64,000 bases of DNA from Candidatus Abzuiibacterium crystallinum (GTDB lineage Bacteria > Omnitrophota > Omnitrophia > Omnitrophales > Abzuiibacteriaceae), in NCBI GenBank assembly GCA_002787155.1, contig PCVY01000023.1:6828-70827 (forward strand). Reading direction: 5' to 3'. This document shows, piece by piece, positions 19,941 to 64,000 of the stretch. Within the stretch, counting starts at the first letter, position 1. Each line of letters begins with the position of its first letter. The notes beneath the pieces were generated by a model. That model was given only the letters and a program-made list of their open reading frames with translations. It searched no databases and was not told the DNA's origin. Made by a program: the position numbers and the translations under genes.

Positions 19941-19956
19941 ATCGAAGGGCTCAGGG

Positions 19957-20366: not shown

Positions 20367-20389
20367 GCGCGCGCGAGAGGAGAACGGCG

Positions 20390-21445: not shown

Positions 21446-21454
21446 ATTATTCAC

Positions 21455-23320: not shown

Positions 23321-23334
23321 ACACAGGACAACAG

Positions 23335-23946: not shown

Positions 23947-23955
23947 GCAGATACC

Positions 23956-31701: not shown

Positions 31702-31800
31702 ATGTTCATCCCTAAAAATATCCAGAGAGCCATAGCCTTTTTTCTTGCCATTTCATTCTCTTTATCGAATGGCCCAACGCTTTTACTTGCCGAAACTTAT
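31702..31800 (+). other. N-terminal signal-peptide-like / signal-anchor segment of the giant protein
   Basis: 'MFIPKNIQRAIAFFLAISFSLSNGPTLLLAETY': positively charged n-region (K5, R9), a 12-aa hydrophobic core, possible cleavage at LLA|ETY. Confidence 0.45.
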
Positions 31801-34800
31801 CCGGGAAGCAGCCTGCCATACCATGCGAGCTCTGTGAATCCAAATGCTATTTTGGATTCCCTTAAGCTTCCCGGTGAGTTAGGCATTGTTCAAGAGGTTT
31901 ATAGCGCGGTACCAGGTACAACGGTGCCAGGTTCACAGAACCCGGCACCGGCTGTACCTGGTACCGGAATTGGTTTCAAAGTTAATCAACTGGTCATCCT
32001 CGTGCAAAATGCCCACGCCAATTATGATTCAGAGTCAAACGTCCGCAAAATCATCCAGTTCTTCCAAGAGCACTATCAATTAGGACTTGTTTTACTGGAA
32101 GGCGGGGAAGGCAAGTTAGACCCGCTTTTTTTTAAATCTTTTCCCGATGGCAAAATAAAAGAAAAACTGCTGGATCAATATTTAAAACATGGGGATTTAC
32201 AAGGCGGTGAAGCAGCAGCCATTTTGAATCATTCAAACAACCCAACGAGTTATTGGGGCATTGAAGATGAAACTTTGTACCAGCAAAACAAAGCGGCCTT
32301 CTTAAAAGCCATTGTTCAAACGGATCAAATCTTAAAACAGCTTACTCAAAAAGAAGCCGCACTCGAGGAAAACATTGCTTCATTGCCTGAATCATCACAA
32401 ACCTTTTACAAGGCTTGGCAGGCTTTTCATGCGGATGAGATGAATTTGCTGGAATACGTGAAAACGTTAGCTGAGCATACATCGGGTACCGGTTCTGTTG
32501 ACAGTGTCATTCCCGCTCGTCTTTGGCGGGAATCTACTGTGATCGGTGCTCTTGTGCGCTCATTTCCCGAACTTGCCAAATTGTTGGAAGTAGAGAAAGG
32601 CGAGCAAGCCCTCCAAAAAAGCGAAATTGACATGACCGTCAACCAACTGTTGAAAGAATTTCAATCAACTGCGCTGCCGGCGCTGTCAGTCGAATCACAG
32701 AAAGAATGGGGCCAGCGGATCCAGGATTATCAAACCGGCCGGCTCGGCGTGGGTTTTTTGATCAAACAGCTTGAAAGTTTTCTTACCATTCCCGATGTTC
32801 TAAAACCTGCTATTCAGCACGCCCAAACCATTTCTTCCGTCCGGGGAACAGAAATATTCCATGAACTTGAGCATTTAGAGAATGCTGTTCGCGATCAATT
32901 GCCGGGGCGTGAGCGCCTTCATCAAGTTAACGAACTGCATCTCTTGAAACGGTTTGCGCGTTTAGAAATTACACATGAAGAGTGGAAGGTCATTGCGAGC
33001 GCAGCGAAGCAATCTCAAGACCAAGGATTGCTTCGGTCATTTCATTCCCTCGCAATGACAGAAATGCTTAAGAACCATTTCACTTTCTACCAACTCGCAC
33101 TCAAGCGTGACGGCATTTTATCCGGCCGCATTCTCGAAATCATGCGCCGTGAATCTCAAAAAGTTTCGCTCGTGGTGACCGGCGGTTTTCATGAAAGCGG
33201 TATCAAAGAGCGCCTCCGGGCAAACGGCACCGCTTATGTTTTGATTTCTCCTGCGATTCAGGAAGTCGGATCAAACGAGGCTTACCTCAATGCCATGCAC
33301 GACAAGCGTTCTTTTATGAAATATTTTCAAGGCAGTTATTGGGATGCTTTGGCAAAGGATTACATGCAGCAATCGTCAGCGGCTGCGGGTCCGCAGGAAG
33401 AAAAGTTTATTTTTAAGCAGTGGCGCGATCAACTCATCCAAAACACGCTGCAGGAGGGCAGAATCACGCAGGCAACGCGTTACACGCGCTATTTGGATTC
33501 ATTTTTACAAACCGAGGGAAAACCAGCGGATGACAAAGTTGGCAGAAAAACTCAATTAGAAGGTGCTTTCGAAAGTTTCCTTTCAACTTATTTTAAACAG
33601 CATCAAGCTGATTTGAATGCCAAGCTTGATCATTTTGCGGCAGGTTTCAAAAATATGCTCACACAGGGCACCTTCACGCAAGGGGCGGTCGAAGCCTTGT
33701 TGCGTCAAACACAAGTCCTGCAAACGGCTCAACTCGCACCGGATCTCGCTTTGATTCCGGCCTGGAACCAATTTCATTTAAGTGAAGCAACGATTGAAAC
33801 ACTGCCTGATATCAACCAACCTCTTTGGCTCGAGCACAAGCAAAAATCCGAACTCAGGAGTGAAGAGGTAGACTCTGATTATTGGTATGCTTATGGTGAG
33901 GAATTCCTTATTTTGATGGAAGAGGTGGGGTACCGGATAGATGAAACTGACCTTGAAGGTGATATAACTCTGGAGGTAGAGACAGTATCAGACGATCGCT
34001 TTCCTAAAGATTTTAGCAAATTAGCTAAAAGTGTTCCCGAATCGGACCTCACACGTTTACGCGACACATATATCCATATTCTAAAGAATGCCATTGGGAA
34101 AAGTCGAACACTTGAGGAGATAGTTGAAGGCTTGAGCACTTTAATATTAAGGCAGGCAGGAATTCGATTAAATGACAGAAAATTAATTGAAGCCATTACT
34201 GATATTTTACTAACCTATAAAGAAAAAGGGGTGACGGGACCCACCCTGCAGCTGCGCCACGTTTATCTATTTCCAAGATATGGTGATGTGAATGAAATCA
34301 TTCAATTACTGGCCAACCATCGAGGGAAACGCGGAACCTTGAGCCAAACCCAACGGCAACTGATTGCACAGCAACTCGAAAACATGAAAGAGCAATGGCA
34401 AGCAAATTACGAAAGAGCTCAAGCCGAAAAAACCGAAGAACCTAAGGTTGATGGTCAACCCAAAACCGGTGAATCGCTTTGGCTGGAGGGTCAACCAAAA
34501 CCCGAACTCAGAAACGCAAAAGATTATACTCAGATGAGTGTCAAAGAATTGCTTGTAGAACTTCAATCAACTCGAAGTCAAAGTAGTCAAGTCAATTTTA
34601 AAATACTTAGGATTACCAGCGAGCTGGAGCAGCGCTCAGAGAAGATGTTAGACAGCGAGATAGTGGCGACTATCAATGCTTTACTTTCTGCATTGATGTT
34701 AATTGAGCCATCCAGCGAGGATGCGCTTCACGCTCACACTTCATTGAGGGCGGTGTTAGAACGATTGATAGAGGAAGTCTCTCAAGATGAGCTTGTTTCT

Positions 34801-58800: not shown

Positions 58801-61800
58801 CTGACAGTCATCATTTCTGTTCTCTTCGATTTAATAAAGGCATATGAAGATTCAAGCCAAAGCGAGCAGGCGCTGATCCGGTCGATTTTCAAAAAGGTGA
58901 TTAAACGTCTTGATCAAACAGAACTGCTCCATCTGAGCCAACGCTTGTTAGGTGTTTTCCAATCGATGGATAGTTCCGAATATTTGGCGCATCAAGCCCG
59001 AGAATCGTTGGTAAAAGCTTTTATTGCGGTCACGCAAAACATTGATTACTCAGCTTTTCCGCGCGTGATTGAAATCATGCTTAATTTTGCGCAATCACGT
59101 GAGCTGCAATATGATATCGGCGGCACACGTGGGGAGCCGGCAAGGTTAAGATTTGAGTTGGCACCCGCTCTCGCGGCTATGGTGAAGCGTGTTCCGCGAA
59201 ATAAGCGTCTTCAAACCATTCAATTTTTGCTTGATCATCTTCGTTTGATGGCTCAAACGTACGAAACCGTGAATATGGGTTCAGAGATCGTCCGGTATTC
59301 GTTGAATGAGATAACAGAGCAAATGGATTCCCGCGCGTTGCTTGATCTGACTCAATTATTATGGCGCACATTGGAATTACTGGAAGATTCAAGCAGGTCT
59401 GCCTTTGATGTGAAGTTTAGGATTCTTTATGTTTTGGATGATGTGATAGGGAAAGAGGCCGAAGTAAACTCTAGCCGTTTGACGGAAGACTGGCGTCACA
59501 GGATTGATCAATTGATATCGTATTTACGTCGGACACCTAATCACAAGAGAGATACATTTGATATCAGATGGATGGTCAGACGGATTTTAATGACCATTAC
59601 CTCAAAACTTGAGGGGCCTAGACTTAACGATGCTGTTGCCGGGCTTTTAGATCAACTGGAGTCTATCCATGACTCTGATGATGTCAGTAACGGCGCCAGG
59701 CAGGTGATAGCGGATGTTTTGGCTAAAGCCGTTCATGGTTATGATAAGGCGTTATTGTCTCGTGCGGCATCCGTGCTTTTTGAAACGTCAAAATTAATTG
59801 TCACGCAAAATCAAGAAGCCAATCAAGCAAAAGCCGCATATGGAAAAGTATTAGTGGAAATTGTTTTACGGCTGGATGAATCCGCATTGTCTGCCCTGGT
59901 AGCGCCTCTCGGGCAATTACTCGATTCCGTTATCCCTATACACAAAGATAGAGTGATTCAGTACGAGAGAGATTCGCTTGGCGCAGCTTTATCAATTGTT
60001 ATTTTGCGATTACACCAGATTAATTTTCATTATGTAAGAGATCCCAGCGCTTATCCAGATCCCAATGATTATATTGATTTTTTACAATATAACATCGCAA
60101 TGCTATTTAACCTCTATATCGAAGACCCTTCTTTTTCCGCGCAGACTAAATGGGATGCCATTGAGCAATTCACTCGAGATGTTATGGGTGACGATCAAGT
60201 GCTTCCGGAAGCAAAGCGCGAGGCCCTGATGGGAAAAATTGGCACATACCGTGAACAGTTGGATGCTGCTTACAAAAGGCATCAGTCCGAGGAAGGCGGC
60301 AGCCAAGACACCGGCCCTGAAGTCCAGGATGAACCGGGCGATTCGCTTTGGTTGGCACGTGCTTCTACCGGAAAGTCAGAACTCAGGGAGGATGCGCTAA
60401 GTCGGATGACAGAGAATCAGTTATTTGATGCATTAATATCCATATCATTTCATGACGACACAACCATTTTTCATCGTTATGCAGGTCCTTTGATATGGGA
60501 ATTGGCCGCAAGGGTAAGGCGTATTAAGAACCCGCTTAGTCAGGAGGTTTTGCTTCAGATGGTGCCAAAACTCCTGGAAGTTTACTTGAGGCATAAAGTT
60601 GTTGAGGAATGGCTTGATCAATTAAGGCAGGAAATCGATCATACACTCAGCGACATTGCCAAACGGTTAAAAAATCAAGAACGTACAGAAATGTTGAAGA
60701 TGATTTTGGATTTCTTGTATTCATTCCCAGGCGCCGGGGTTGAGCTGAATCGCGTCCGGGTAACTGCGGGAGACGTTTTGCGGGAAATCGCAAGAGGCAC
60801 TGATGCCGAAGAACTGCCTGATTTATTAAATTCGGTTTTATCCATTTATCAAGCAATCAAAGGATCAGACAGAGATGCCAATCAAGCCAGATGGAGAATG
60901 GGAAGTGCGTTAAAAGAAATCGCTAAACGTATTGATTCATCCCAATTACTTCCCTTGGTTACACCTCTTTTGGATTCTCTTTCACTGATGGCAGATCCAA
61001 GAGACCCGTCAAGCGCGTACGCAAATACGGCATACCGCACTGTTGCCAATATTTTAAGAACCATCGTGAAACGCATAGATCCCCATCAACTGCCTGAAAT
61101 AAAAGCGCCGCTTTTAGGTGCGCTGACGCATATACAAGGCGACACCGAAGCTGCGCGTTTTGCACGGGGTGATATTAGCAGATTGCTTGCGGAACATTAT
61201 TTACGCTCACATGGATTAGCCTTAAGCGGACGCGGGGGTAATTTACTCAAAGCTTTTGCGGATGTTTTTGCGGCCGCATCACCGGACGGAATATCGGTAT
61301 TTCCTCTCTATGGTGATCAAAAAGAAATTGATCGTCTTTTTCAAAGTGCCGCAGACAAAAATGGCCGCATAGCACCTCAAATGCGTCAGCAACTCATTTC
61401 ACAACTTCAAACTTACCAAGAACAATTAATCGCCGCGTATCAAAGGGATCAGAGATCAGGGAACAGGGATCAGGGGACAGGGAACAGGTCACAAGACACG
61501 GGAACAGATGAGACGCTTTGGGCGGCGGGGGTTGCCGGCAGCGTGAGTGCGGGAGCCATCGCGTCCGCGGCCCGCAGTGAACCATCGACTCGCAGCGAAC
61601 TGCGCTCAAAAGATTATTTCCATCAGGCAACAGAGAACTTGCTGCGCGAATTGGCCGCGCTTCAAGGGTCTAGCGATGATGTCAATCAACGCAGGAAATG
61701 GATGGCGGATGCGCTGGACGGAGAGGTTATTAAGAGAGTACAGTCTTCGATGCTTCCCGTGTTTTTATATCCGCTCCTCCGCCAGCTTGATGCGATTGAA

Positions 61801-64000
61801 AACGCCGGTGTATTAGCCAACCAAGCCAGAGCATCTCTTGGGAATCATTTGGTAACCATCGCCGTCTATGTTGATGCCGGTCATTTACCGGCCATGTCAG
61901 GAGTTACGATGAAAGCTTTGGCGCGAATTCAGGGGGATGATCCCGCAGCTAATAATGCCAGAGGCGTGATGACATCGATTTTAAGACAAGTTACAAGACG
62001 CATCGAACCGCATGAACTGCTTCAAATCAAAGGGGCGTTTCTCGCAGAACTCGCAAAACCTCTGGGCAATGGTCAAGAAGCACGCTATGTAAGGTGGGGT
62101 ATTTTTTATTCATTAGAAGAGCTTGCTAAACGGATTGACACGGCAGAACTGCCGCACTTAACGGCCGTGATGCTGAATGAACTAGTGAATACGGCTGAGC
62201 GAACGGATGATACTGCCAATGAAACCAAGCAATCGGTCGGAAGGGTTTTAAAAGAAATTGCTCATCGTATTGATTCTGATGCCCTGCCCGGTCTGATAGC
62301 GCCTGTCGTGGCGGCGTTGGATGGTGTCACAGACCTCAGCAAATCTGCCTACGAAGTTCAAAGCTCTCTCACATCGGCGTTGACAGCAATCGCAAATCGT
62401 GTGCATGAACGGGAACTTCCCCAACTGATTCCGCCGCTTCTTGGGACATTAAAAAAGATTTCGGAAGCAAAAGGCGAAGATGAAAAAAAGGCGGCTGATG
62501 ATGTGAGACTGCACGCGGCGGTTGCCGTCCAGGCAGTGTCTCGGCGTGTTGCTGATGTTCGTGAGATTGATCTGCTTGCTGCGTCCATGACGGATGAACT
62601 TGCGAAATTCAAAGACCCGAATCATTCAACGTTAGCCACACTAAGAGCGGTTGCAGAAGCGCTTGCCGTTATTTATATGAGGCTTCACGATCTTTCATTA
62701 AAAAATGAACCGTTATTTCACGCCCTCAGAGATCTTTTGAAAGTGGAATATGTAGTTGACGCAAAGCTCTTTCCCGCTTATGGAAGCTTGGAAAATGTTA
62801 AACAGATCCTCCAACACGCAGATCCGGCACGGATGACTGCCCAATTGAACGCTTACCGCAAACAATTAATCGCTGAGTATCAAAGAGATCAGGGAACAGG
62901 GATCAGGGATCAGGTGTCGGGGGATGGGGATCAGGGGACGGGGAACAGGTCAAAAGACACGAGAACAAATGAAACCCTTTGGACGGCGGGGGTTACCGGC
63001 GGTGTGAGTGCGGGAGCGGAGATTACAGGAAGAAGTGAAATGCGGAAAAAAGTAGACAGCACTGCCGGTTCTCGCTCCGAACCCCACTTGAGTCCAACCG
63101 ACTCAAGTGCTGTCCGTCCCGAAAAGCCAACCGCTTTTCGAGCGGAACTGCGAACCAAAGATTATTCCCGCATGAGCGTTGATGAATTGTTAAATGAACT
63201 TCAGTCAATCAAAGGATCAACTGATGATGCCAATTGGGCAAGACGAGTCATTACCGATGTCTTCACAGAAATATCAAAAAGAATTGATGAAACCGAACTT
63301 CCCGCTATTTCACAAGCGTTGTTGATCACTTTAAAAGAAATCAAAGGATCAACTATTTATGCCAATATTTATGCCAATTGGGCAAGACGGGCCATTGCCG
63401 ATGCCCTCGGAGAAATATCAAAAAGAATTGCTGAAACCGAACTTCCCGCTCTTTCACAAGCCTTGTTGATTGCTTTAAAAGAAATCAAAGGATCAACTTT
63501 TGATGCCCATCCGGCAAGACGGGCCATTGCTGATGCCTTCCGAGAAATATCAAAAAGAATTGATGAAACCGAACTTCCCGCTATTTCACAAGCCTTGTTG
63601 ATCGCTTTAAAAGAAATCGAAGGATCAACTGATGATGCCAAGCATATGAGATGGGTCATTGTCGATGCCCTCAGAGAAATATCAAAAAGAATTGATGAAA
63701 CTGAACTCATCGCTATTTCACAAGCCTTGTTGGCAGCTTTGAAGAAAATCAAAGGATCAACAACTGATGATTATGCTCATGGTGCAAGAGAGGCTATTGG
63801 CAAAACCCTAGCTGTTATTGTGTTGCGATATCATCAAATCCCTATTTCAGATGAGAGAAATGATTTATTGAGCGCTCTTCAAGATGTCTTTACACTTGAA
63901 ATGAACGGTGTTTCCATCTATCCCATAGAAAACCATCATCCATTGAATAACCCAAACAATTCCATTCATCAAATCTTTAAACAACATGGCCAAAACCACG
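31702..64000 (+). CDS. giant modular protein (at least 10,766 aa; 3' end beyond window): N-terminal signal-like segment, HEAT-like repeat arrays, six tandem MoxR/midasin-class AAA+ domains, HExxH motif, CoxE-like VWA/MIDAS domain, further repeat modules
   Basis: Frame 1 (positions = 1 mod 3) has a stop at 31696-31698, an ATG at 31702, and no stop through nt 64000. I translated the frame by eye and found no in-frame stop; about 25 stretches were checked in detail for frame. Every + strand ORF in the supplied track between 31.8 and 64 kb is in frame 2, and no terminated frame-1 ORF is listed. The translation contains six Walker A/B pairs, a DxSxS MIDAS motif and at least 15 conserved linker cassettes. 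Confidence 0.85.
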   Translation, partial: MFIPKNIQRAIAFFLAISFSLSNGPTLLLAETYPGSSLPYHASSVNPNAILDSLKLPGELGIVQEVYSAVPGTTVPGSQNPAPAVPGTGIGFKVNQLVILVQNAHANYDSESNVRKIIQFFQEHYQLGLVLLEGGEGKLDPLFFKSFPDGKIKEKLLDQYLKHGDLQGGEAAAILNHSNNPTSYWGIEDETLYQQNKAAFLKAIVQTDQILKQLTQKEAALEENIASLPESSQTFYKAWQAFHADEMNLLEYVKTLAEHTSGTGSVDSVIPARLWRESTVIGALVRSFPELAKLLEVEKGEQALQKSEIDMTVNQLLKEFQSTALPALSVESQKEWGQRIQDYQTGRLGVGFLIKQLESFLTIPDVLKPAIQHAQTISSVRGTEIFHELEHLENAVRDQLPGRERLHQVNELHLLKRFARLEITHEEWKVIASAAKQSQDQGLLRSFHSLAMTEMLKNHFTFYQLALKRDGILSGRILEIMRRESQKVSLVVTGGFHESGIKERLRANGTAYVLISPAIQEVGSNEAYLNAMHDKRSFMKYFQGSYWDALAKDYMQQSSAAAGPQEEKFIFKQWRDQLIQNTLQEGRITQATRYTRYLDSFLQTEGKPADDKVGRKTQLEGAFESFLSTYFKQHQADLNAKLDHFAAGFKNMLTQGTFTQGAVEALLRQTQVLQTAQLAPDLALIPAWNQFHLSEATIETLPDINQPLWLEHKQKSELRSEEVDSDYWYAYGEEFLILMEEVGYRIDETDLEGDITLEVETVSDDRFPKDFSKLAKSVPESDLTRLRDTYIHILKNAIGKSRTLEEIVEGLSTLILRQAGIRLNDRKLIEAITDILLTYKEKGVTGPTLQLRHVYLFPRYGDVNEIIQLLANHRGKRGTLSQTQRQLIAQQLENMKEQWQANYERAQAEKTEEPKVDGQPKTGESLWLEGQPKPELRNAKDYTQMSVKELLVELQSTRSQSSQVNFKILRITSELEQRSEKMLDSEIVATINALLSALMLIEPSSEDALHAHTSLRAVLERLIEEVSQDELVSIIPVLHTTLEQIHGTSSQANMARVTITRILEKLSKKVPLPALASIQNALLLALKLTEGSDIDTSHTRNNIAHCLALVTLRYYQVIHLTDNRLPFISLEKLLSMVSSGPDRISLFPIYGDLEVIGQILQSQDQTNMIQQLNAYREQLMAQYQREQRSGIRGQGTGNSLPDHDPLWTAGVAGGVNAGAGADRAELRNKNYSQMTADELLQALKSVQGTNEASTDTRRALSNALNAAFRRMNQEELPAIFQDSLAAIKEIGESDERTQARDWIAMPLFALIQKIDEDQLAFVFENLIAVLREIKGSSHAAIQVRFSIIQNLILIVHRRHHRSYTSPGDKLAQALHVLFSAASSKVWVFETYGSLHALDQIFESKDDKTIIAKLSAYREQLIALSLREEAPRVKGQEQQDTGGGSGDTDQNDSIWAATVLGPANVSASIKIHSSRSELRMKRRLDPLDQLLNDLKSLKGSGDTTNGIRADLADALTTLGRKLTESQLFLIVDPIITQLEQIEGSRYTANRAKLAITSFINMAASRLSPTQLGGLVKPLFNQIVFKRELEELTSNIPVSFGDSLLEVVREIDQTQLQEVARLLFDYLTNLPDDLEYTNLSLRSICRALTMVFKRIDTFPWSEAVAAFKTLHRNTEQTRTFYPAFPWISDVLAMALLRMHQIEIEKGRDSLFSALSRLLEFHKDDTVLFLRHGDFNEVNSILQSHADRSTKTAQLNHYREQLLALHQREQGAGSREQGTPPHSVGRIRPPAEGIRSQDTDHELWLSGPVGAGAVGVGAAVLNTKSELRTHGDDEYDVMGFESKYWKMDLNELLDELWFILWFNEEGWGKSFDRNTIIEITDHIQRKSKEADQDELVPAARRLFDALEKTVKYFNRDTAAPHLAVARALAAVHWKIHGFNTSEWSNELFLTLEDIFVIAIGEKSLFLSYSSPAAIKQILELKDQNAMIYQLKALREQILAAYQREQGTGDSAAHRRADPSSGGREQEPRDTGSHEPLWTAGVGAGVLLSAKSELRVQFFQIALTKLVDFARQNASLFFRYVINRQKVVERDDDDYEKMSTDELLDDLQFIHLAYAFRHVPPQRRWDISLSLGWRVQKMTKPELLDFSRKLLTILTTTKGSSENAHQIRSAAAGVFKEVVRIIPDTELLAIFKALFSALKITHQSLSVAFSHAARIEERAITDTFEIIRKRMPKADFSQVVDEYLAVLEEIKNRKFLFWEKTIQHQTLHLMGEAVYSFPEAQLRRTAKELIAILRALKDQGGNVNEIRILLLYVFRNIVERLPEADLGGYVTELLSTFDAIKGSNEHAGEAKGDIGHILSKAAERMPPSELPHFADEALIRLESTPNRGNQAYQTTRAMAEALWGFAKAVDPEKADPQKMSKIMNLLLEKLKLIKGKGDNEEWAKIHILLALGAIAKKIPHQELPGLSNAILSELTHYEFNDGLKGRLIDVLIAIADSIDLAELPKISNELLDVLKEMGELNDDEDGGYQTLVTIAVFFEQITPKISETELPRISKAFLTALAAIKGSSYNLDRVRRFVGDVLALISLRINHLPLDNKPLIEQLQKFFSLAPASHSLFPMYGDLNEIGHILKLEDHKQVIAQLNAYQAQLLARYQREQGTPPHSVGRIRPPAEGNREQGTGIRSQDTDHDLWLSGPVGAGIRAELRNKDYSKMTIDELLQALQMGRSDQEAQELKIGIAKVLKESAKTMQPTELQHLSNRLLLLLEAAPAKGRAGRQTIQAVADIYQVIAMKIDPAELPKILEALLTASKLPLKYDVDGRDAKRFITIALTKVAERIPEEKLPTILNYALLELSHYDLDDQLTYSLIFVLDAVANRIQPTELPRILHALLDKLKTIKSLDDKDEEDLIWQVVMIAAFTFKSIAARMSATELPAISKRLLEIRSLAKRDSTQAEKTRDALLAPFPAIAARIDKKELPNLFDQFVDILKNTHRTDASPGSSSNMRLRSRKVLAIIFLRNHQLPLDDETLAKALENLLGIHSPTDSLFPIYGEFSEIDRILRLPGREQMIAQLTIYRKQLIAQSQRDQGTGNREQGTGDGEQGTGIRSQDTESNDTLWVISPAVERSELRTKDYSRMSVDELLNELQSIKGSTIDVNWAREAIADTLTEILKRIDPTKLPAISQALLTALKEIKGFADDANRTRWAITFSFPEILQRIDPTELPAISQALLITLKEIKGLSNATNEARRTITFSFPEILQRIDPTELPAISQALLIALKEIEGSTDAANQARWVIADAFREMPKRIDKSELPAISQTLLAALKEIKGSTIGANQAREAIGKTLAVIVFRHHQIPVTDETNDLLSALQDVFTLEMNGVSIYPIENHHPLNNPDNPIHQIFKQHDQDYAQIMSQLNRYREQLSAQHQRDQGTGNREQGTGIRSQDTDHDLWLSGPVGVGAGLTKAGRQSADHDKRVELRNESPNLEDLSPTDEAREVEVVIKAIHALTDSVWKQPLPRLNTRSNAGAELASLVNQCVHLIRDTKMTVNEQIQLVKAFLHLLESFESLYLKTLVGSASHLQLHWLLRHVMTAIPFGQITPIRHEIYLSQEIARRQGPSRNTTLHIDFLSEILIMLALKQAGFKGTWDTLAVDKIYNTNVWKELGDFYSGTVRVRREGIGFLHQYADDAEINKIINIWLDDSGNLDHTRAEQVITQLKLYIDQLLHQIKIKANEEPGTDDAEQSADSRPEDIWLRGSFRPQGGLGPSKSELRTAKSKSDLGKRLTQLAKDLEAEVEARQIKGLAKQLLENKSTRTKTDAQIESEIKEKAADDAAMDRLIAHLKIARALKEAGNDFLRDYEQTHYLKLAKIQQPNAVLWGLRFLDLDDIQDPEIRRLMGKLQSLLMVNEFFGRSSAAFVESVLTEFIVNTVIGDDFGMTELLTSLDPNQNLIELFQDWGVNVQLKYSREHTGIQALYDIARLYSKVFPEFNNNARTGFITHDFKEMLREPEGDADRNQQARALARGGAAQALNLLTIRLLGLPAGRTMEQQWQELFKITEKGIPNLQKPEHLNGARAEDILAGLAEISKTSQGQLKEVVAELIQGRFKLLVNHDVERFKQIGIIIGFTGIDGFAKIPFGRLREKYHLTEGSEEEGRLLKIVAQISRTAREGTGGLIEEVFDLYSQEAGEHLDDLNKLLQAFSYFVRLVNFHHDYERLVLEGDIGKVNNEALFVSLRDLKRTLDIVKKNDAKGMDIRDAIASAVKRRYYNRLSIEDRGIVRDLMARHRLIHENDLLDFDYVIDGFKNGSSRIRIYRKRKSGPARFKRTEVKPGEYKMELIQESVGKPELLLEIPLAQPLANVDPKIILNETTRRNLANILDALEVEEGKRFNPVLEFGVTSGGKSTTAALVAKILGVGFTRIQINERTDEFDLFGSFQPYEINITLEEAIQLLQEALATNNYNGLEDVFSRLKSDQTGQFWENYFNAQERQTIELGKDSRYPQRSVLERQRAAIRDKLKQLADKQLELAQSLKSLSAQERRLIDSKTDNPVWQAQLAQLRREEAEGFDQLNRIKSIAFMLNHEVGLRYKEGRFLTAYKRGDLILLDEVNLANEEMLGVLYQLLTLGYLEYNGKVIEPPLGKQARILATANPSGYAGRRRMSEAFMNRFEIIHVDEMTDEEMRDIVVGQMMKDLIASGRYTAGDFEQNSDEAPEVWDKKINKILQEEYGITRESTRLLAGVQRKFNSILATGSFPRMGSDSNYVFTLRNLQRIAGDVKERKENGERITLETWIREAYGEYAGVLMRPSTQPSYTAERLKPDESLPAEHHLWDDPDYKTIRRVFTTFMGELIAGESHQSYDDAFDELIRRHFETIPYVYDSTAHAIKLDGLLTQGAEPNDQNPIEPLIEVGSTKMVQRQILKGIRRNIPTLLVGQSGGGKTEIIGDLVNRLGRQYISVSLGDATLESLIGTMEYNRMEKRFVYRRGVLVKAMEEGSVLVLEELNMAKSGILEILNEYFDDGTFTNPFTLKQVAVHRDFRLFATMNPIQGETGENLGRVSLSPALRNRFREIWVPHKKTDAEMNEILIGKFKQLGVEKIEKATGAKIIGFFRAYEEAFKDQADPVYYTSLRDLNRIAKIMAYLINELDMHESDALARAIDRVYRLRMQNSGALAVVDQILIELKIKIPGAGQLSYQSRNGVLEVRDGQTLVAKLDLSLIQAKLRDRIRGELSADTDPAELEALTEKRLKTLLDEAVLVENPRTKAHLLDLMEAVTLPSGEVKKGKFNPIFLLGETAGGKSSLTKYLALHLLGQNYTRIQFNERTDEFDLFGAYEPRELHMGLDRAFRIVQNAMEQGEWVKIKKALKLWQTGALTEDDLSELEMIEKVEERIRTVDLEASQQITKILKDASEEDVLGDPGQKREAERKLKTIAFLIENNMLNVELEFREGRLLQAIRRGDVVVLDEMNLANEEALAVLYQLLTLGYVEYYHKDTRQVERITPAPGFKLMATANPASYAGRHRLSEALMNRFEIHYVMNMTPQEMTEILRGENSHEPVFERDQSFQTTVEKLTLLQENINEALRNGQFPEVSSDQVQGYLFTLRNLKRVLRNTAELLRQGDSSPPSESLIRQAYLEYLGVLGRSDASIKTLQSLFKAPKQFPQFNPDFRISFESMTMPNGQSGILAGGFKVVRRFYEDEAEGVSHDADVIEELEEGATTNLIRQAIAKGLLDSRMAVLLVGQSGGGKTEMIGDLARRLGWRYRSVSLGNATLESLVGGYAMDHETKKFRYIPGILIQAMREGAILVLEEMNMAPSGLLEILNEYFDESTFTNPMTGQKEKIHPNFRLFATMNPEKGVTSTSEGRVGLSPALRSRFSEVWVPHIRTQAETERIIRKKFSNRGVSHVPPKVTEDIYRVYDQYRRFVEEGKIGQESNEGYYVGLRDVVKIIDLVAQDQSRGIPMEEALRFAFKRIFYLRLNSDADRKTVQEEILKTYDMSKTEYQWKSVNDHWVVKRTQWQTAEVPKALLKEKGFILTPQSQEELALLLEAMQRGVTIQGKAAARSFNPMMLFGETSGGKSTLVEIAASIFRTPFTRIQMNQRTDEYDLLGSYHPVEVKLTFEQAYEVVQSVIRQNQTLRTAQVLRALHITDDHVKSVLRINPDQTMPLEQLQKRFLEEHVLANARQGNPKSIEQMKDIGALLLNGVAGIELIFREGMLLQAMGDRETGRPGQVVLLDEFNLANEEAIGILYQLLTLGYIEFQGRKIFPGKGFQLIVSGNPSRYSGRRRMSEAFMNRFEILNRPSMTKEEMVKILTEKYALEASGISKSGIEALVDLQFDIEETAQSIGFDFFNQDNTYRFSLRNLERIVQDLKKRMEVEPERSVQVMLREEAYLEYAGLLSQSTDEDDPKKNNLKVLAGLFKKHFNWEIDPETVLPEFKKQTLVKGEDEWISLNGVRVRKLSPHQMLESLQLELNEEIRSGALADDDGGKLVLLTEANLVRILAQVEKRLASHDPLSRKEIMREEARTEYLKMLGESPRLVKRLDELINQHFYTQAERIEPLVELKSTRLVRMQILKGFRDGGVIRSRDTEGREVLNHRSQPVLLVGQSGGGKTEEIADAARELNRPYISVALGAATIESLIGSFVLNSETGTFEFRKGIMVRAMEEGSALTLEELNMAESSIIEVLNEYFDRGTMTIQERNVPIRIHPNFRLFATMNPTEGRTGRNAGRIPLSPALRSRFREVWVRNERNKGEQYRLMLGGIHALVSSLITRGLPEDRPDELENLELDWTRRRLAETAGQQVQFASSESLSAALKAGPSITLPRHDSSAIRMAKASEDGTPKEKPTSKEWERMAINERKRIYEEQFRIVSHGIMNIMSSDEAIELGLSRDGSHHWAYAPSINTLIYNSREIMTLSLDALIGVGVHESMHRYGTRYTSLFADFLDAQSLAGSFFNILEDGRIENWARYRFRGVERPLRTLNDEIIFDFEDDNEMVERMIKTSKDGKDIGHAGAIGNFFLYLAKRGSDPGAGKVIEKFLKAFEERDPALKEDIENLMQAGYFGGARDEDIIDAARQRKAQGVFSAIPVSPDDVGVYRVDPNPSEETILQLAIHQGILIRDFIMPVVYKWAVLQAEGEGSGKSGSGGAPGRGKIVIRPGKPGEESTPISPREWKKIWDSLSENDKKKILDTLDDLKKKAQDRTAKDSIDHKNAAIDAEITEPKSERDRLMSQMGKMIHELAGYLRDLIQNTIRPKEITGLKKGRIDVRRLMNAMARGFTDMRFYKQRIIPDKKDIKFTLIIDESGSMAGMGESGKGPEDNAAAKGYRTLMGAALLMEVLETLGIDFAVRGYGDDTFLHKRFKGQRIELSDQRAHFPPVPDGYATRKEKDTLIDDLYGSIGNHGGNNEGPALQAAIRDILKAGGEKHFVIVITDAMGDTKAIQEILDEVRAKKGMIGSTQTEFIAIGLGNDTESVPEVYGSEHGFWLHDDEVHKLPSEIKKLLQNVIRGVYAPGSGTPSRFSQFGKRMTDSASMAGAAGVGASTASASSAARSHSELRADDLESKVRKIIIRLARSQGDGLSAEQEHTDMLRRLGVLANRRSPEEVFEIVIEMMADETVGFSRKENAIRRAIMEAFLKELTPSAVLTSSAINELQDLMHTLAREAHSPEAQAEIDVIKSRIKELRLKLIMRQEVFTYAKITQLLSLDPSETVDLFLESLLSGDYSSGVDRKRMASNFGNLISNLNGELLLQTTEQIIEAIRTDPRAHIDPYENLEKYGSKIAYERHSILLEGLLVAVKKVDRSILQSIVDCMVQDLQYERSKKLKAEILAIALLRQENIITTNPSQEEKSLINALVNLPGRSTFQTSDLKEITLMLQHAKPKRGRLSSQAIKVLREQIKNFDEQIRARATRAQNENEQRSEDNLLPPDTESELWLENPRAELRTENDGSRRVDQLLKELQSIQGSSDEANRIRRDIGRALKKTVEENAIIDPSHAAQVLISTLHQIKGSNAGAYKAKEAIGWALAEVAKKIETTELPKISQAFISVLEAIEGSSAAATNLRLNAAWMLDGTAQRIDLTELPAIFQALISALGQLRGSDAGTRNGRTDFGFVLTDIVFRYHQLAPYLESSESELHSAMRNLMTMLSFSDDVPLFPRYGDWDTLHQIFEMGDSKKIIQNLKKFREQIFAQYQREQRSGDREQGTRDRLQDTGTNETLWTAGVAGSVSAGAFVPAARSELRTKNYFRTAVDKLLRKLRSMRVHRLLRELKGLIGNTTSDAHWARLDIAGALIRISKKTDSTDLPAVTQALFLVLSTTERSSSLGLEEERRLGVFRALREISKRIDSAELSAILHALFSVLRETKGSFVSAAYERRAIANIFIEISRRIDQTELPAMMQGLLSVLLEVFEDSGSADHDAIEAVAGVLNEISKRIDQANLLNFTQALLLALSEIKGSNQDASTARTKIAIVLREISKSIADTELPTVTQALLKALNESEGFDTYASDARAQIAVALEEILKRIDETELPAVAQALISISNKFKSLGYSFWPNSTIQEALAVIVFRHHQMPVTDETNDLLSALQDVFTLEMNGVSIYPIENHHPLNNPDNPIHQIFKQHGQDHAQIMSQLNRYREQLSAQHQREQRSGDRGQGTGNSLPDQDSLWAAGVGLGTFLFTARNELRNGWLAERGHYLVHRFVHMVYGIRIKFRKKDHITERVLALINELKSLKGSGPDVVQSITDLATSLVENLKHIDQKDLPYVLDVLLSTLKQIKGSDDRATDARVWITTVLGTMVDRLDKKERTKLVKEFLSISRQMKGTMVNNIFVWTNILQTFAAMLAYLDDHERPLIIEELVTALKDIEDPTGNADLIRKNISETLSIFFFHRHGYPDLENKDPLFVALKKLFGATQNAVSLFPRYGDLTEVDRILQLEDREKIISQLNAYREQLMAQYQRDQRSGNRDQVSGDGGQGSGNRSQDMNDDLWLVGLAGAAAVHRTELRGVESLFRQLINLVRSALGRKQPAGSLKTKLHALIGMRTEEAHQQRASLLVQLKNEVSYASLSELTVIISVLFDLIKAYEDSSQSEQALIRSIFKKVIKRLDQTELLHLSQRLLGVFQSMDSSEYLAHQARESLVKAFIAVTQNIDYSAFPRVIEIMLNFAQSRELQYDIGGTRGEPARLRFELAPALAAMVKRVPRNKRLQTIQFLLDHLRLMAQTYETVNMGSEIVRYSLNEITEQMDSRALLDLTQLLWRTLELLEDSSRSAFDVKFRILYVLDDVIGKEAEVNSSRLTEDWRHRIDQLISYLRRTPNHKRDTFDIRWMVRRILMTITSKLEGPRLNDAVAGLLDQLESIHDSDDVSNGARQVIADVLAKAVHGYDKALLSRAASVLFETSKLIVTQNQEANQAKAAYGKVLVEIVLRLDESALSALVAPLGQLLDSVIPIHKDRVIQYERDSLGAALSIVILRLHQINFHYVRDPSAYPDPNDYIDFLQYNIAMLFNLYIEDPSFSAQTKWDAIEQFTRDVMGDDQVLPEAKREALMGKIGTYREQLDAAYKRHQSEEGGSQDTGPEVQDEPGDSLWLARASTGKSELREDALSRMTENQLFDALISISFHDDTTIFHRYAGPLIWELAARVRRIKNPLSQEVLLQMVPKLLEVYLRHKVVEEWLDQLRQEIDHTLSDIAKRLKNQERTEMLKMILDFLYSFPGAGVELNRVRVTAGDVLREIARGTDAEELPDLLNSVLSIYQAIKGSDRDANQARWRMGSALKEIAKRIDSSQLLPLVTPLLDSLSLMADPRDPSSAYANTAYRTVANILRTIVKRIDPHQLPEIKAPLLGALTHIQGDTEAARFARGDISRLLAEHYLRSHGLALSGRGGNLLKAFADVFAAASPDGISVFPLYGDQKEIDRLFQSAADKNGRIAPQMRQQLISQLQTYQEQLIAAYQRDQRSGNRDQGTGNRSQDTGTDETLWAAGVAGSVSAGAIASAARSEPSTRSELRSKDYFHQATENLLRELAALQGSSDDVNQRRKWMADALDGEVIKRVQSSMLPVFLYPLLRQLDAIENAGVLANQARASLGNHLVTIAVYVDAGHLPAMSGVTMKALARIQGDDPAANNARGVMTSILRQVTRRIEPHELLQIKGAFLAELAKPLGNGQEARYVRWGIFYSLEELAKRIDTAELPHLTAVMLNELVNTAERTDDTANETKQSVGRVLKEIAHRIDSDALPGLIAPVVAALDGVTDLSKSAYEVQSSLTSALTAIANRVHERELPQLIPPLLGTLKKISEAKGEDEKKAADDVRLHAAVAVQAVSRRVADVREIDLLAASMTDELAKFKDPNHSTLATLRAVAEALAVIYMRLHDLSLKNEPLFHALRDLLKVEYVVDAKLFPAYGSLENVKQILQHADPARMTAQLNAYRKQLIAEYQRDQGTGIRDQVSGDGDQGTGNRSKDTRTNETLWTAGVTGGVSAGAEITGRSEMRKKVDSTAGSRSEPHLSPTDSSAVRPEKPTAFRAELRTKDYSRMSVDELLNELQSIKGSTDDANWARRVITDVFTEISKRIDETELPAISQALLITLKEIKGSTIYANIYANWARRAIADALGEISKRIAETELPALSQALLIALKEIKGSTFDAHPARRAIADAFREISKRIDETELPAISQALLIALKEIEGSTDDAKHMRWVIVDALREISKRIDETELIAISQALLAALKKIKGSTTDDYAHGAREAIGKTLAVIVLRYHQIPISDERNDLLSALQDVFTLEMNGVSIYPIENHHPLNNPNNSIHQIFKQHGQNH
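37028..37068 (+). repeat. 39-41 nt palindromic mini-insert CTCCGCC(A/G)CACA(G/T)CGTCGGGCGGATCCGTCCTCCGGCGGAA embedded in-frame in the heptamer arrays of the giant gene (other copies 37720-37759 and 39667-39705)
   Basis: Three near-identical copies encode 'TPPHSVGRIRPPAEG' or 'SAAHRRADPSSGG'. They share the 22-nt core with 19037-19058. Confidence 0.8.
40934..40996 (+). repeat. coding heptanucleotide tandem repeat (GGGAACA and variants, 9 units; 4 perfect copies at 40941-40968) encoding 'QGTGNREQGTGDGEQGTG'
   Basis: Period 7 nt, read directly. Similar arrays at 35255-35296, 36990-37027, 41954-41995, 56199-56250, 57539-57580, 58469-58530, 61445-61490 and 62885-62950. Confidence 0.85.
41100..41720 (+). 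repeat. array of near-identical 132-nt (44-aa) tandem repeats 'IDPTELPAISQALLIALKEIKGS..A..AR..I...F.EI.KR'. A second near-identical array lies at 63150-63790.
   Basis: 'ATTTCACAAGCC' recurs at 41221, 41353, 41485 and 41614, and at 63307, 63451, 63583 and 63715. Minus-strand 'ORFs' 41115..41543 and 63369..63752 are shadows of these repeats. Confidence 0.85.
44780..51900 (+). other. block of six tandem AAA+ domains (MoxR/midasin/dynein-related, AAA_5-like). Walker A at 44851-44880 (GVTSGGKST), 46453-46476 (GQSGGGKT), 47527-47550 (GETAGGKS), 48865-48888 (GQSGGGKT), 49855-49881 (GETSGGKST), 51457-51480 (GQSGGGKT)
   Basis: Each unit has a Walker A, a Walker B (odd units 'LLDE(V/M/F)NLANEE', even units 'L(V/T)LEE(L/M)NMA'), a sensor-like 'ATANP/ATMNP' and 'MNRFE / LSPALR(N/S)RF'. 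All are hallmarks of the MoxR/AAA_5 family. Confidence 0.8.
52414..52428 (+). other. HExxH motif (HESMH) between the AAA block and the VWA domain
   Basis: 'LIGVGVHESMHRYGT'. Could be a zincin-like site or chance. No third ligand identified. Confidence 0.25.
53430..54100 (+). other. VWA domain (CoxE/MoxR-associated type) with a MIDAS motif DxSxS at 53536-53550
   Basis: 'GRIDVRRLMNAMARG....KKDIKFTLIIDESGSMAG', later 'GNHGGNNEGPAL' and 'FVIVITDAMGD', so MIDAS ligands are present. Confidence 0.75.
63355..63378 (+). repeat. 12-nt in-frame tandem micro-duplication ATTTATGCCAAT x2 ('IYANIYAN') inside one HEAT-like repeat
   Basis: Read directly. It makes this repeat unit 144 nt instead of 132 nt. 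Confidence 0.8.

What the first reader, a model, noticed from the sequence alone, without database searches (positions are those of the whole stretch)
34300..63250. Modular architecture: a conserved linker cassette occurs at least 15 times, separating HEAT-like repeat arrays
One cassette recurs with strong conservation: '..LFP.YGD..EI..IL....(D/E)...I.QLNAYREQL(I/M)A(Q/L)(Y/H)QREQ', then a Gly/Thr/Arg-rich low-complexity stretch, then '(D/E)..LW..G..G', then '..SELRTKDYS(R/Q)MSVDELL.ELQSIKGS'. Approximate positions are 34.4, 35.25, 35.95, 37.0, 37.7, 39.65, 40.9, 41.95, 42.9, 55.4, 56.2, 57.5, 58.45, 60.25, 61.45 and 62.9 kb. Between cassettes are arrays of 40-45-aa two-helix repeats of the 'TELPAISQALL..LKEIKGS...A..AR..I' type, which look like HEAT or E-Z/PBS-lyase-like repeats. 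The protein appears to be built from about 15 repeat blocks that each end in a flexible hinge. That is unlike Ig/cadherin/RTX giant adhesins and closer to eukaryotic scaffold and ATPase giants.
Basis: seen in the sequence. Interest (0 to 1): 0.7.

Follow-up and report, generated by a model that had tools for sequence, protein, structure and literature searches.

The report
Conserved junction cassette in bacterial giant protein
A more than 10,700-residue protein of an uncultured Omnitrophota bacterium is built from helical-repeat modules strung on either side of a midasin-like ATPase motor, and every module boundary carries the same conserved junction, whose best-kept residues lie in the part predicted to be floppy, so it is probably a recognition site and not just a hinge.

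The parts
31702..63999 (+). Giant ORF, 10,766 aa within the window, running off the 3' end
   Evidence: No stop codon in the frame. Residues 2-3359 are identical to NCBI PIW65547.1. An ENA contig of a near-identical strain calls the gene at 11,094 aa.
31702..31800 (+). N-terminal hydrophobic segment (signal peptide or membrane anchor). It is the only transmembrane-like segment at a terminus.
   Evidence: Kyte-Doolittle scan. An equivalent segment is present in orthologues P0003, P0006, P0008, P0011 and P0013.
31861..33513 (+). N-terminal alpha/beta domain with a Tiki/TraB/EreA/ChaN-type fold. Invariant QxAH (32005-32016), EG (32098-32103), RD and GGFH (33181-33192). A large helical insertion interrupts the domain.
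33820..33858 (+). Junction-only copy (PLW-LEHKQ-KSELR) between the N-terminal domain and module 1
33859..42996 (+). First run of 9 modules made of ~44-aa two-helix repeats (alpha-solenoid), each ending in a cassette
34258..34584 (+). Cassette 1 (W at 34480, ELR at 34504)
35104..35454 (+). Cassette 2 (W 35320, ELR 35374)
35830..36201 (+). Cassette 3 (W 36061, ELR 36127)
36844..37308 (+). Cassette 4 (W 37102, ELR 37168). Carries the 48-nt GC-rich insert.
37555..38022 (+). Cassette 5 (W 37801, ELR 37846). The insert is read in a different frame here.
39499..39867 (+). Cassette 6 (W 39760, ELR 39796). Carries the insert.
40783..41139 (+). Cassette 7 (W 41029, ELR 41059)
41791..42153 (+). Cassette 8 (variant cap IYPIENHHPLNNP; W 42022, ELR 42100)
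42676..43023 (+). Cassette 9 (divergent; the W lies in EDIW at 42913-42924, ELR 42973)
42994..44808 (+). Pre-AAA helical region, conserved in P0003 and P0006 (46-57% identity)
44809..51978 (+). Six AAA_5 modules arranged as three tandem two-AAA units. Walker A motifs at 44851, 46453, 47527, 48865, 49855 and 51457; all six Walker B motifs are intact.
   Evidence: Pfam AAA_5 1.4e-63. PDB sequence search: midasin 5.5e-87, matched co-linearly over two-AAA units. Motifs and 40-41% identity between units.
51979..53448 (+). Conserved region with HESMH (52414-52428) and ILEDGRIENWAR (52504-52539); a possible zincin-like peptidase
   Evidence: 52% identical to P0007, with both motifs kept. No Pfam or NCBIfam match.
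53449..54318 (+). VWA domain with the MIDAS motif DESGS (53536-53550)
   Evidence: Pfam VWA 4.8e-4, below threshold. The only PDB sequence hit is the midasin MIDAS domain 6qt8, E 0.02. 65% identical to P0007.
54289..54309 (+). Junction-only copy (SELR preceded by a G/A-rich stretch) after the VWA domain
54310..63999 (+). Second run of at least 8 alpha-solenoid modules with cassettes
55231..55530 (+). Cassette 10 (W 55429, ELR 55450)
56050..56412 (+). Cassette 11 (W 56275, ELR 56335)
57379..57807 (+). Cassette 12 (W 57604, ELR 57652)
58321..58668 (+). Cassette 13 (W 58561, ELR 58603)
60136..60453 (+). Cassette 14 (W 60349, ELR 60379)
61267..61680 (+). Cassette 15 (W 61519, ELR 61597)
62734..63228 (+). 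Cassette 16 (W 62980; SEMR at 63037 and AELR at 63142)
63898..63999 (+). Start of cassette 17, cut by the window end
9773..26147 (+). Upstream type II secretion / type IV pilus-like locus (GspE, GspF, pseudopilins, PilM/N, secretin)
   Evidence: Pfam. The same kind of locus is reported upstream of Omnitrophota giant genes (10.1101/2023.11.21.568195).

Best explanation
The cassette is the standard inter-module junction of a family of giant proteins from Omnitrophota.

Anatomy (shown). Each helical-repeat module is an alpha-solenoid. It closes with two capping helices (LFPxYGD..EI..IL, then QL.AYREQL.A.YQR). A disordered G/T/R/Q/D-rich spacer of 18-35 residues follows. Next comes a bipartite motif, (D/E)xLW then 1-67 variable residues then RSE(h)R. 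The RSE(h)R element starts the first helix of the next module (DYSxMSxDELLxELxSIxGS).

Overall layout (shown). An N-terminal hydrophobic segment is followed by a Tiki/TraB-fold hydrolase-like domain, then 9 modules, then a single-chain six-AAA ring closest to midasin, then an HExxH region and a VWA/MIDAS domain, then at least 8 more modules.

Function (inferred). The modules would be flexible, multivalent protein-binding beads placed around an ATP-driven remodelling motor.

Role of the junction (inferred). Its best-conserved residues sit in the accessible, non-globular part, and the same motif marks boundaries of unrelated domain types. The junction is therefore something that gets recognised, not a passive hinge.

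Favoured mechanism (about 35% on its own). The motif is a site-specific proteolytic processing site. It would be cut by one of the two hydrolase-like domains carried in cis, so that the ORF acts as a polyprotein releasing modules and the motor, much as MARTX toxins do.
For: - Cassette copies and controls.
- Cap helices, disordered spacer and solenoid: AlphaFold2 model, with H19-54 before and H93-394 after a stretch (residues 55-92) with pLDDT below 50.
- HEAT/ARM fold.
- Spacer not constrained as protein: the same 48-nt insert is read in two frames.
- Family: 26 representative proteins, 113 cassettes in total. In the 97 cassettes outside this window, W is 97% conserved, L before W 81%, and R-S-E-x-R 70-81%. 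The W-to-RSExR spacer is 1-67 aa, median 12.
- The motif also follows the N-terminal domain here. In P0011 it lies between beta-propeller-like and helical domains.
- The same overall architecture is found in P0003, P0006+P0007 and P0013.
- Hydrolase-like domains in cis: Tiki/TraB/EreA fold with invariant His/Glu residues. The 2His/2Glu catalytic set of this superfamily, and the RRSP endopeptidase of an autoprocessing MARTX toxin, are described in PMC6254334. HESMH plus EDGRIE is conserved in P0007.
- In a relative the orthologous locus exists as three consecutive ORFs in two independent assemblies, so the pieces can be separate polypeptides.
- West-Roberts et al. already raise cleavage of Omnitrophota giant proteins by N-terminal peptidase domains.
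Against: - No experimental evidence for cleavage, and no proteomic data were examined.
- A bipartite motif with a 1-67 residue spacer is unusual for a protease site.
- RSE(h)R is predicted to be helical, as the N-cap of the next module. It could be conserved for structural reasons alone.
- The Trp region was modelled with a shallow alignment of 8 sequences. A small folded clasp could have been missed.
- The N-terminal domain has Gln where Tiki-family enzymes have the first Glu. The HExxH region matches no peptidase family in Pfam or NCBIfam. Catalytic activity of either domain is therefore unproven.
- Localisation is unresolved. A signal-like N-terminus and the upstream secretion locus suggest export, whereas an AAA+ motor needs ATP.
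Confidence: 0.55

Rival explanations
1. Structural clasp. The acidic-Leu-Trp element and the RSE(h)R element pack against each other or against the neighbouring cap helices (Trp-Arg stacking, Glu-Arg salt bridges). The variable spacer loops out. The junction then sets the angle and stiffness between beads. Nothing external recognises it.
For: RSE(h)R is predicted helical and continuous with the next module. The two conserved elements flank a loop of very variable length, as expected if only the ends matter. Trp is a typical packing residue.
Against: The Trp region has pLDDT around 30 in all models. The same motif precedes quite different domain types, so there is no constant partner surface apart from the first helix.
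Confidence: 0.22
2. Passive flexible hinge. The cassette is just the module caps plus a disordered tether. Its conservation reflects recent internal duplication and gene conversion.
For: Linker DNA is up to 99% identical between copies (39705-39786 versus 41967-42048). The spacer is low-complexity and tolerant of frame changes, and it has low pLDDT.
Against: Gene conversion within one gene cannot explain 97% conservation of the Trp and 70-81% conservation of RSExR in 97 cassettes from 25 other proteins. The N-terminal domains of those proteins are only 23-37% identical to this one.
Confidence: 0.1
3. MIDAS ligand. The invariant Glu of RSE(h)R, flanked by arginines in an accessible segment, completes the metal coordination of the protein's own VWA/MIDAS domain. 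Rsa4 and Ytm1 do this for midasin, and integrin ligands do it for I-domains. The six-AAA ring could then pull on its own chain or on neighbouring chains.
For: The VWA domain has an intact DESGS motif and its only solved relative is the midasin MIDAS domain. The AAA ring is midasin-like. There is an invariant acidic residue in every junction on both sides of the motor.
Against: This is purely an analogy. Relatives such as P0011 carry the junctions but have no AAA/VWA core in the same polypeptide. The Trp, which is the best-conserved residue, is not explained.
Confidence: 0.07
4. Constraint at the nucleic-acid level. The G-rich linker DNA would act as Shine-Dalgarno-like translational pause sites that let each module fold, or as recombination hot spots that shuffle modules.
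For: Linker DNA is 34% G against 24% elsewhere. Windows binding the anti-SD sequence at -6 kcal/mol or better make up 12% of linker DNA against 4% elsewhere. One insert is conserved as DNA but read in two frames.
Against: The 40 strongest SD-like windows in the ORF all lie outside the linkers. The conserved elements (W, RSExR) are amino-acid motifs kept across proteins of low identity.
Confidence: 0.04
5. Assembly artefact. The repeat arrays caused chimeric joins, so the copy number or order of cassettes is not real.
For: The public NCBI contig stops exactly inside the 41.0-41.9 kb array. Arrays at 41.7, 57.3 and 63.8 kb share 88-94% identical stretches of 217-293 nt.
Against: The copies are diverged, so they can be told apart. 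An independent ENA assembly of a near-identical strain calls an 11,094-aa gene of compatible length. Orthologues in other samples have the same layout.
Confidence: 0.02

Closest known systems
Giant proteins of Omnitrophota ('Archaeovorins'; West-Roberts et al. 2023, bioRxiv 10.1101/2023.11.21.568195; Seymour et al. 2023, PMC10066038)
   Same: Same phylum: the source is an Omnitrophota MAG. A type II secretion / type IV pilus-like locus lies upstream. HEAT-type repeats and AAA_5 are among the commonest domains reported for these proteins. An N-terminal signal-like segment and an N-terminal hydrolase-like domain are present. Cleavage into smaller polypeptides has been suggested for them.
   Different: This protein is about 11,000 aa, not 30,000 or more. 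The 10,766 residues seen have no internal transmembrane segments, and Pfam finds no SecA-like, glycosyltransferase or other enzyme domains in them. The word 'linker' does not occur in either Omnitrophota giant-protein preprint searched. A junction cassette, the midasin-like nature of the AAA core and a Tiki-fold N-terminal domain are likewise not mentioned in the passages those term searches returned.
Midasin / Rea1 / Mdn1 (eukaryotic ribosome-assembly AAA+ mechanoenzyme)
   Same: Six AAA_5 modules in one chain. The sequence match is E 5.5e-87, with co-linear alignment across pairs of neighbouring AAA modules. A MIDAS-type VWA domain with DxSxS lies C-terminal of the ring. Both are giant and largely helical elsewhere.
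   Different: It is bacterial. The ring is three tandem copies of a two-AAA unit, 40-41% identical. The roughly 1,700-residue linker and the D/E-rich region of midasin are replaced by a roughly 490-residue HExxH region. The ring is flanked on both sides by cassette-delimited solenoid modules. It has an N-terminal signal-like segment.
HEAT/ARM alpha-solenoids (importin-beta, AP complexes, HEATR1; Pfam HEAT, HEAT_2, HEAT_EZ)
   Different: No Pfam HEAT or Arm model matches at any useful threshold. The arrays are short (3-7 repeats), each has dedicated N- and C-terminal caps, and they are chained by a conserved junction.
MARTX toxins (multifunctional autoprocessing repeats-in-toxin)
   Different: There is no sequence similarity to MARTX repeats or to the cysteine protease domain. 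Processing here is only hypothesised. The modules are near-identical scaffolds, not distinct effectors.
MoxR-VWA remodelling pairs (NorQ/NorD, CbbQ/CbbO, CobS/CobT)
   Same: An AAA_5 ATPase combined with a VWA/MIDAS partner. These are the next-best solved relatives (NorQ 2e-8, CobS 5e-8, CbbQ 3e-6).
   Different: Those are homohexamers of single-AAA subunits with a separate VWA protein. Here six AAA modules and the VWA domain are fused in one chain, and they score about 80 orders of magnitude better against midasin.

Membership tests
HEAT repeat families (Pfam HEAT, HEAT_2, HEAT_EZ / PBS-lyase type) and Arm | Significant match to the family profile HMM | tested here: not met
   No HEAT, HEAT_2, HEAT_EZ or Arm hit at E<=0.01 over the whole ORF, nor at E<=10 on the five best arrays. 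The only hits were Arm_4 1.4e-3, ARM_PUB 0.035 and HEAT_Maestro 0.29, all far below their cut-offs.
HEAT repeat families (Pfam HEAT, HEAT_2, HEAT_EZ / PBS-lyase type) and Arm | Tandem units of about 37-47 aa, each a helix-turn-helix pair, stacked into an alpha-solenoid | tested here: met
   [not shown]
Midasin (Rea1/Mdn1) | Six tandem AAA_5 modules in one polypeptide | tested here: met
   Six Walker A/B pairs between 44851 and 51646. Pfam AAA_5 1.4e-63 and 3.6e-36. Midasin is the best PDB match at 5.5e-87, with 6-7 aligned stretches.
Midasin (Rea1/Mdn1) | MIDAS (VWA) domain with DxSxS on the C-terminal side of the ring | tested here: met
   DESGS at 53536-53550. Pfam VWA 4.8e-4, below the cut-off. 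The only PDB hit is the midasin MIDAS domain 6qt8, E 0.02. The motif is present, but the family-level match is weak.
Midasin (Rea1/Mdn1) | Long helical linker plus a D/E-rich unstructured region between the ring and MIDAS | tested here: not met
   Only about 490 residues separate AAA6 from the VWA domain. They form a conserved HESMH-containing region, not a D/E-rich one.
Midasin (Rea1/Mdn1) | Orthology: branches with eukaryotic midasins, and each AAA module corresponds to the AAA module at the same position | not tested
   No phylogeny was made. The three-fold repeat of a two-AAA unit argues against simple position-by-position orthology.
Omnitrophota giant proteins of the Archaeovorin type (West-Roberts et al. 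2023) | Encoded in Omnitrophota, downstream of a multi-subunit type II/IV secretion-like locus | tested here: met
   Identity to PIW65547.1 from an Omnitrophica MAG. GspE, GspF, pseudopilins, PilM/N and secretin lie upstream. A relative (L008) lacks this locus in the 10 kb of upstream flank fetched.
Omnitrophota giant proteins of the Archaeovorin type (West-Roberts et al. 2023) | Numerous transmembrane regions, a divergent SecA DEAD domain, and length of 30,000 aa or more | tested here: not met
   Only the N-terminal hydrophobic segment is found; two other weak Kyte-Doolittle hits lie inside folded domains. No SecA hit. A near-identical strain has the gene called at 11,094 aa. The last ~328 aa were not seen.
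Tiki/TraB/EreA/ChaN superfamily (N-terminal domain only) | Alpha/beta core fold with parallel sheet | tested here: met
   [not shown]
Tiki/TraB/EreA/ChaN superfamily (N-terminal domain only) | The 2His/2Glu catalytic set after the core strands | tested here: inconclusive
   Invariant H105, E133 and H497 are present, but the position two to three residues before the first His is an invariant Gln, not Glu. The catalytic set is as described in PMC6254334. No structural superposition of side chains was possible.
Sorting or transmembrane signal (LPXTG, PEP-CTERM, GlyGly-CTERM type) for the G/A-rich stretch after the Trp | A hydrophobic helix of about 20 residues followed by basic residues | tested here: not met
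   The spacer is 1-67 aa, median 12, and often only 4-7 residues. The hydropathy scan finds no transmembrane segment at any cassette.

The most novel reading that the evidence does not exclude
The protein is a prokaryotic single-chain midasin whose own junctions are its substrates. The invariant Glu of each RSE(h)R element would dock into the MIDAS site, and the six-AAA ring would pull on the chain, its own or a neighbour's. This would give a self-engaging, force-generating protein network. It would also provide a bacterial model for how six-AAA motors such as midasin and dynein arose from MoxR-VWA pairs; here the ring is visibly three copies of a two-AAA unit.
Probability: 0.07. Interest if true: 0.9.

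Novelty: new variant of a known kind. Interest (0 to 1): 0.6.

Why it matters
Giant ORFs are a hallmark of Omnitrophota, a phylum of tiny and probably predatory or parasitic bacteria. The literature says their functions are poorly understood (PMC10066038).

A junction motif kept at every domain boundary, in 113 copies across 26 proteins, gives a concrete handle on these proteins:
- It defines the modules and allows constructs to be designed.
- It makes one question directly testable: are these ORFs polyproteins that are cut into pieces? That question has been raised before but not addressed.

Separately, the core is a six-AAA ring fused to a MIDAS domain in a bacterium, and it scores far better against midasin than against any MoxR-type ATPase. 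Six tandem AAA modules have been thought to have arisen early in eukaryotes from MoxR (PMC3495828). This protein is either a horizontal transfer or an independent or ancestral concatenation. Its visible structure of three two-AAA units could show how such rings are built.

Tried and rejected
- Pfam and NCBIfam scans of the arrays, the N-terminal domain and the HExxH-VWA region gave nothing useful beyond AAA_5 and a weak VWA hit.
- The search for homologous proteins returned nothing with the cassette alignment or with the HExxH-VWA region. One call timed out. The tool also failed to return P0001 and P0007, which are in its collection, so it appears blind to very long proteins. I therefore do not treat these negatives as evidence of rarity.
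With the central region it found only a spurious Acutalibacteraceae hit in genome contigs. The source is apparently not among the GTDB species representatives.
- An exact search for the window's last 61 nt in JGI metagenome contigs found nothing, so the 3' end of the gene was not recovered.
- Sorting-signal or transmembrane reading of the G/A-rich stretch after the Trp: rejected, because the spacers are too short and too variable and no hydrophobic peak is present.
- Shine-Dalgarno-like pause sites in linker DNA: only a mild enrichment, explained by G-rich codons, and the strongest sites lie elsewhere.
- Internal restart codons at the Leu-Trp: among the LW motifs visible, Leu is CTC or CTT (one, at 58.5 kb, is TTG), so this is not a consistent start codon. 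The idea was not pursued.
- A profile of the N-terminal domain against PDB sequences gave nothing. Only the fold comparison placed it.
- Assembly artefact: considered and judged unlikely.
Full report
**What is in the window.** The + strand holds one stop-free frame from 31699 to the window end. Its ATG is at 31702 and it encodes 10,766 residues without reaching a stop.

**Upstream genes.**
- 3.4-7.7 kb: trehalose genes.
- 9.8-26.1 kb: a type II secretion / type IV pilus-like locus with GspE, GspF, pseudopilins, PilM/N and a secretin.
- After that: a PEGA protein, a glycosyltransferase, phosphatidylserine decarboxylase, a CDP-alcohol phosphatidyltransferase and a LysE protein.

**Check of the observation.**
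- A profile built from seven clear cassette copies finds 16 full copies.
- The nine copies not used to build the profile score 11-82 bits. The best score in 100 shuffles of the protein is 3.3 bits.
- A 17th copy begins at 63898.
- Two reduced copies, with only the LW...SELR part or SELR alone, follow the N-terminal domain (33820-33858) and the VWA domain (54289-54309).
- An iterated profile of the ~44-residue unit finds 52 repeats, confined to 34.6-41.7 kb and 55.4-63.8 kb.
- DNA repeat analysis shows three closely related arrays at 41.0-41.9, 57.3-57.6 and 63.1-64.0 kb. It also shows many more diverged copies. The periodicity therefore goes well beyond the near-identical arrays.

**Anatomy of the cassette.** I modelled residues 3029-3480 (cassette 7, five repeats, cassette 8) with AlphaFold2, using eight paralogous modules as the alignment. 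The model shows:
- two helices for LFPxYGD...YQRDQ (H19-26, H31-54);
- a stretch with pLDDT below 50 (residues 55-92) covering the G/T/R-rich part and the LW;
- a continuous helical solenoid from the SELR onward (residues 93-394, pLDDT 85-94);
- disorder again in the next linker.

The spacer is not constrained as protein. A 48-nt GC-rich, hairpin-forming insert occurs in three linkers. It is read in one frame at 37027 and 39664 (TPPHSVGRIRPPAEG) and in another frame at 37718 (DSAAHRRADPSSGG).

**Are the repeats HEAT repeats?** By fold, yes.
- Foldseek gives the same kinds of protein, but weakly, with E>=0.012.

By sequence, no. No Pfam HEAT, HEAT_2, HEAT_EZ or Arm family is hit, even at E<=10 on the best arrays. 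I therefore call them HEAT-like alpha-solenoid modules and do not file them in a Pfam HEAT family.

**Source.**
- The exhaustive profile search with the 16-copy alignment found 26 representative proteins.
- The best, P0001, is NCBI PIW65547.1, a partial hypothetical protein of a Candidatus Omnitrophica MAG. It is identical to residues 2-3359 of the ORF.
- The NCBI contig (GCA_002781965.1, PFGO01000018.1) is identical to window 20823-41425 and ends inside the 41-kb repeat array.
- An ENA contig of a near-identical strain (12 mismatches in 20.6 kb) has the gene called at 11,094 residues, ending about 117 nt before the contig end. If that call is right, the window lacks about 328 residues.

**The family, and what is conserved.**
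- An iterated cassette profile finds 113 cassettes in 26 proteins.
- In the 97 cassettes that are not from this window, the best-conserved residue is the Trp (97%).
- Next come the Leu before it (81%), the Glu (81%), and the Arg, Ser and Arg of R-S-E-x-R (70-77%).
- The cap helices are less conserved.
- The Trp and the RSE(h)R are separated by 1-67 residues, median 12, rich in Ala and Gly.
- In P0011 (7,743 residues, with the same N-terminal domain but no AAA core) the same junction reads ...Q.QARKARGEQE, then GHKDTRAQEKGGG, then ELW, a spacer and RSE.R. There it lies between beta-propeller-like SPDGR-repeat domains and helical domains.

The junction is thus a general inter-domain element of this family, and its most conserved part is the part predicted to be accessible. 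That is the main correction to the 'flexible hinge' reading.

**The rest of the protein.**
- *AAA ring.* Between the two runs of modules lie six AAA_5 modules (Pfam 1.4e-63). All have intact Walker A and B motifs. They are arranged as three tandem copies of a two-AAA unit that are 40-41% identical.
- *Closest solved relative.* Against all PDB sequences the best match by far is midasin/Rea1 (5.5e-87, 6-7 stretches). The alignments run co-linearly from one AAA module through the lid into the next P-loop. NorQ, CobS and CbbQ follow at 1e-8 to 1e-5. Short metagenomic fragments that JGI names midasin are also among the best database hits.
- *HExxH region.* After the ring comes a ~490-residue region with HESMH and ILEDGRIENWAR. 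Both motifs are conserved in the orthologue P0007.
- *VWA domain.* Next is a VWA domain with DESGS, whose only PDB sequence hit is the midasin MIDAS domain (E 0.02).
- *Hydrophobic segments.* Only the N-terminus carries a hydrophobic, signal-like segment, and this is conserved in the orthologues.
- *Architecture in relatives.* The same overall architecture occurs in P0003 and in P0006+P0007.
- *A split orthologue.* In the P0006/P0007 relative the locus is three consecutive ORFs of 2,813, 4,753 and 756 residues. An in-frame TAG inside the first AAA module separates the first two. The last two overlap by 30 nt. This is seen in both a JGI and an ENA assembly, and the last ORF carries two more cassettes.

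**How it most likely works.**

*Shown:* a beads-on-a-string protein of capped alpha-solenoid modules on both sides of a midasin-like six-AAA ring with a MIDAS domain, with a conserved junction at every boundary.

*Inferred:* the solenoids are protein-binding scaffolds, the ring is a remodelling motor acting through the MIDAS domain, and the junction is a recognised element.

*Favoured mechanism:* site-specific proteolytic processing, at about 35%. The reasons are:
- the motif marks every boundary, whatever the flanking domain;
- it lies in accessible sequence;
- two hydrolase-like domains are carried in cis and are conserved;
- a relative exists naturally in pieces;
- there is a precedent in MARTX toxins, and West-Roberts et al. 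make a similar suggestion for other Omnitrophota giant proteins.

*Rivals:* a structural clasp formed by the two conserved elements (about 22%), a purely passive hinge (about 10%; disfavoured), a MIDAS ligand (about 7%), constraint at the nucleic-acid level (about 4%) and an assembly artefact (about 2%).

*Unresolved:* localisation. The signal-like N-terminus and the secretion locus suggest export, yet the motor needs ATP.

**Comparison with what is known.** Giant ORFs in Omnitrophota are well documented. HEAT repeats and AAA_5 are listed among their common domains.
- Term searches of the two Omnitrophota giant-protein preprints find no 'linker' in either. 'Dynein' and 'VWA' are absent from one, and 'midasin' and 'VWA' from the other. 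'Midasin' is also absent from PMC10066038.
- I found no description of a junction cassette or of a Tiki-fold N-terminal domain in the passages returned. These were term searches, not full readings.
- This protein fails two Archaeovorin features in the part I could see: many transmembrane segments and a SecA-like domain.
- It works like midasin in its core but is not a midasin orthologue by the tests I could make. The linker and D/E-rich region are absent, and the ring is a three-fold repeat.
- The view in the literature I could read is that six tandem AAA modules arose early in eukaryotes from MoxR (PMC3495828).

**Verdict.**
It is sharpened in three ways: HEAT-like by fold only; the junction is conserved and general, not a mere hinge; and the core is midasin-like.
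- Novelty: a new variant of a known kind.
- Interest: 0.6. The junction gives a testable handle on how Omnitrophota giant proteins are organised and possibly processed. The single-chain midasin-like ring in a bacterium also bears on the origin of six-AAA motors.

Noticed in passing
window 44809-51978: Six AAA_5 modules with intact Walker A/B motifs in one chain, organised as three tandem two-AAA units (40-41% identical). The best solved relative is midasin (E 5.5e-87), far ahead of NorQ, CobS and CbbQ. This is a bacterial single-chain midasin-like ring.
   Followed up: partly
window 51979-54318: A conserved HESMH (52414-52428) plus ILEDGRIENWAR region, followed by a VWA domain with DESGS (53536-53550). 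The region is 52-65% identical to P0007 and matches no Pfam or NCBIfam peptidase family. It may be a zincin-like domain fused to the MIDAS domain.
   Followed up: partly
[not shown]
   Followed up: yes
window 37027-37076, 37718-37767, 39664-39713: A 48-nt GC-rich insert that can form two hairpins (about -18.5 kcal/mol) sits in three linkers. It is translated in two different frames. It looks like a small DNA-level insertion tolerated inside coding sequence.
   Followed up: partly
window 41000-41900, 57265-57581, 63100-64000: Three closely related repeat arrays (up to 94% identical over 293 nt). Two linkers are 99% identical over 82 nt (39705-39786 and 41967-42048). This suggests recent duplication or gene conversion. 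The public NCBI contig ends inside the first array.
   Followed up: partly
L009 9889-10001 and 24232-24262 (JGI 3300031576 Ga0247727_10000388); also L010: In a relative the orthologous gene is split into three ORFs. An in-frame TAG inside the first AAA module separates the first two, and the last two overlap by 30 nt. Both features are identical in two independent assemblies. This could be a real split, read-through, or a frameshift.
   Followed up: partly
L008 15703-25353 (GCA_964511315.1 CAZEFF010000004.1): Downstream of the 1,900-residue relative P0013 there are almost 10 kb without any ORF of 150 aa or more on the + strand. This may be a degraded continuation of the giant gene. The 10 kb of upstream flank fetched for this locus has no secretion genes.
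   Followed up: no
window 3453-7662: A trehalose gene cluster (OtsA-like GT20, trehalose phosphatase, DUF5752, TreT-type synthase) lies upstream of the secretion locus.
   Followed up: no
window 9773-26147: A complete type II secretion / type IV pilus-like locus on the same strand as the giant gene, with GspE, GspF, four pseudopilin-like genes, a TPR protein, a ParA-like ATPase, PilM/N and a secretin. This matches what has been reported upstream of other Omnitrophota giant genes.
   Followed up: partly
tool behaviour: the search for homologous proteins did not return P0001 or P0007 for queries that match them at 52-100% identity, although both are in its collection. Very long proteins seem to be invisible to its word index, so 'no hit' from that tool does not show rarity for giant proteins.
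   Followed up: partly
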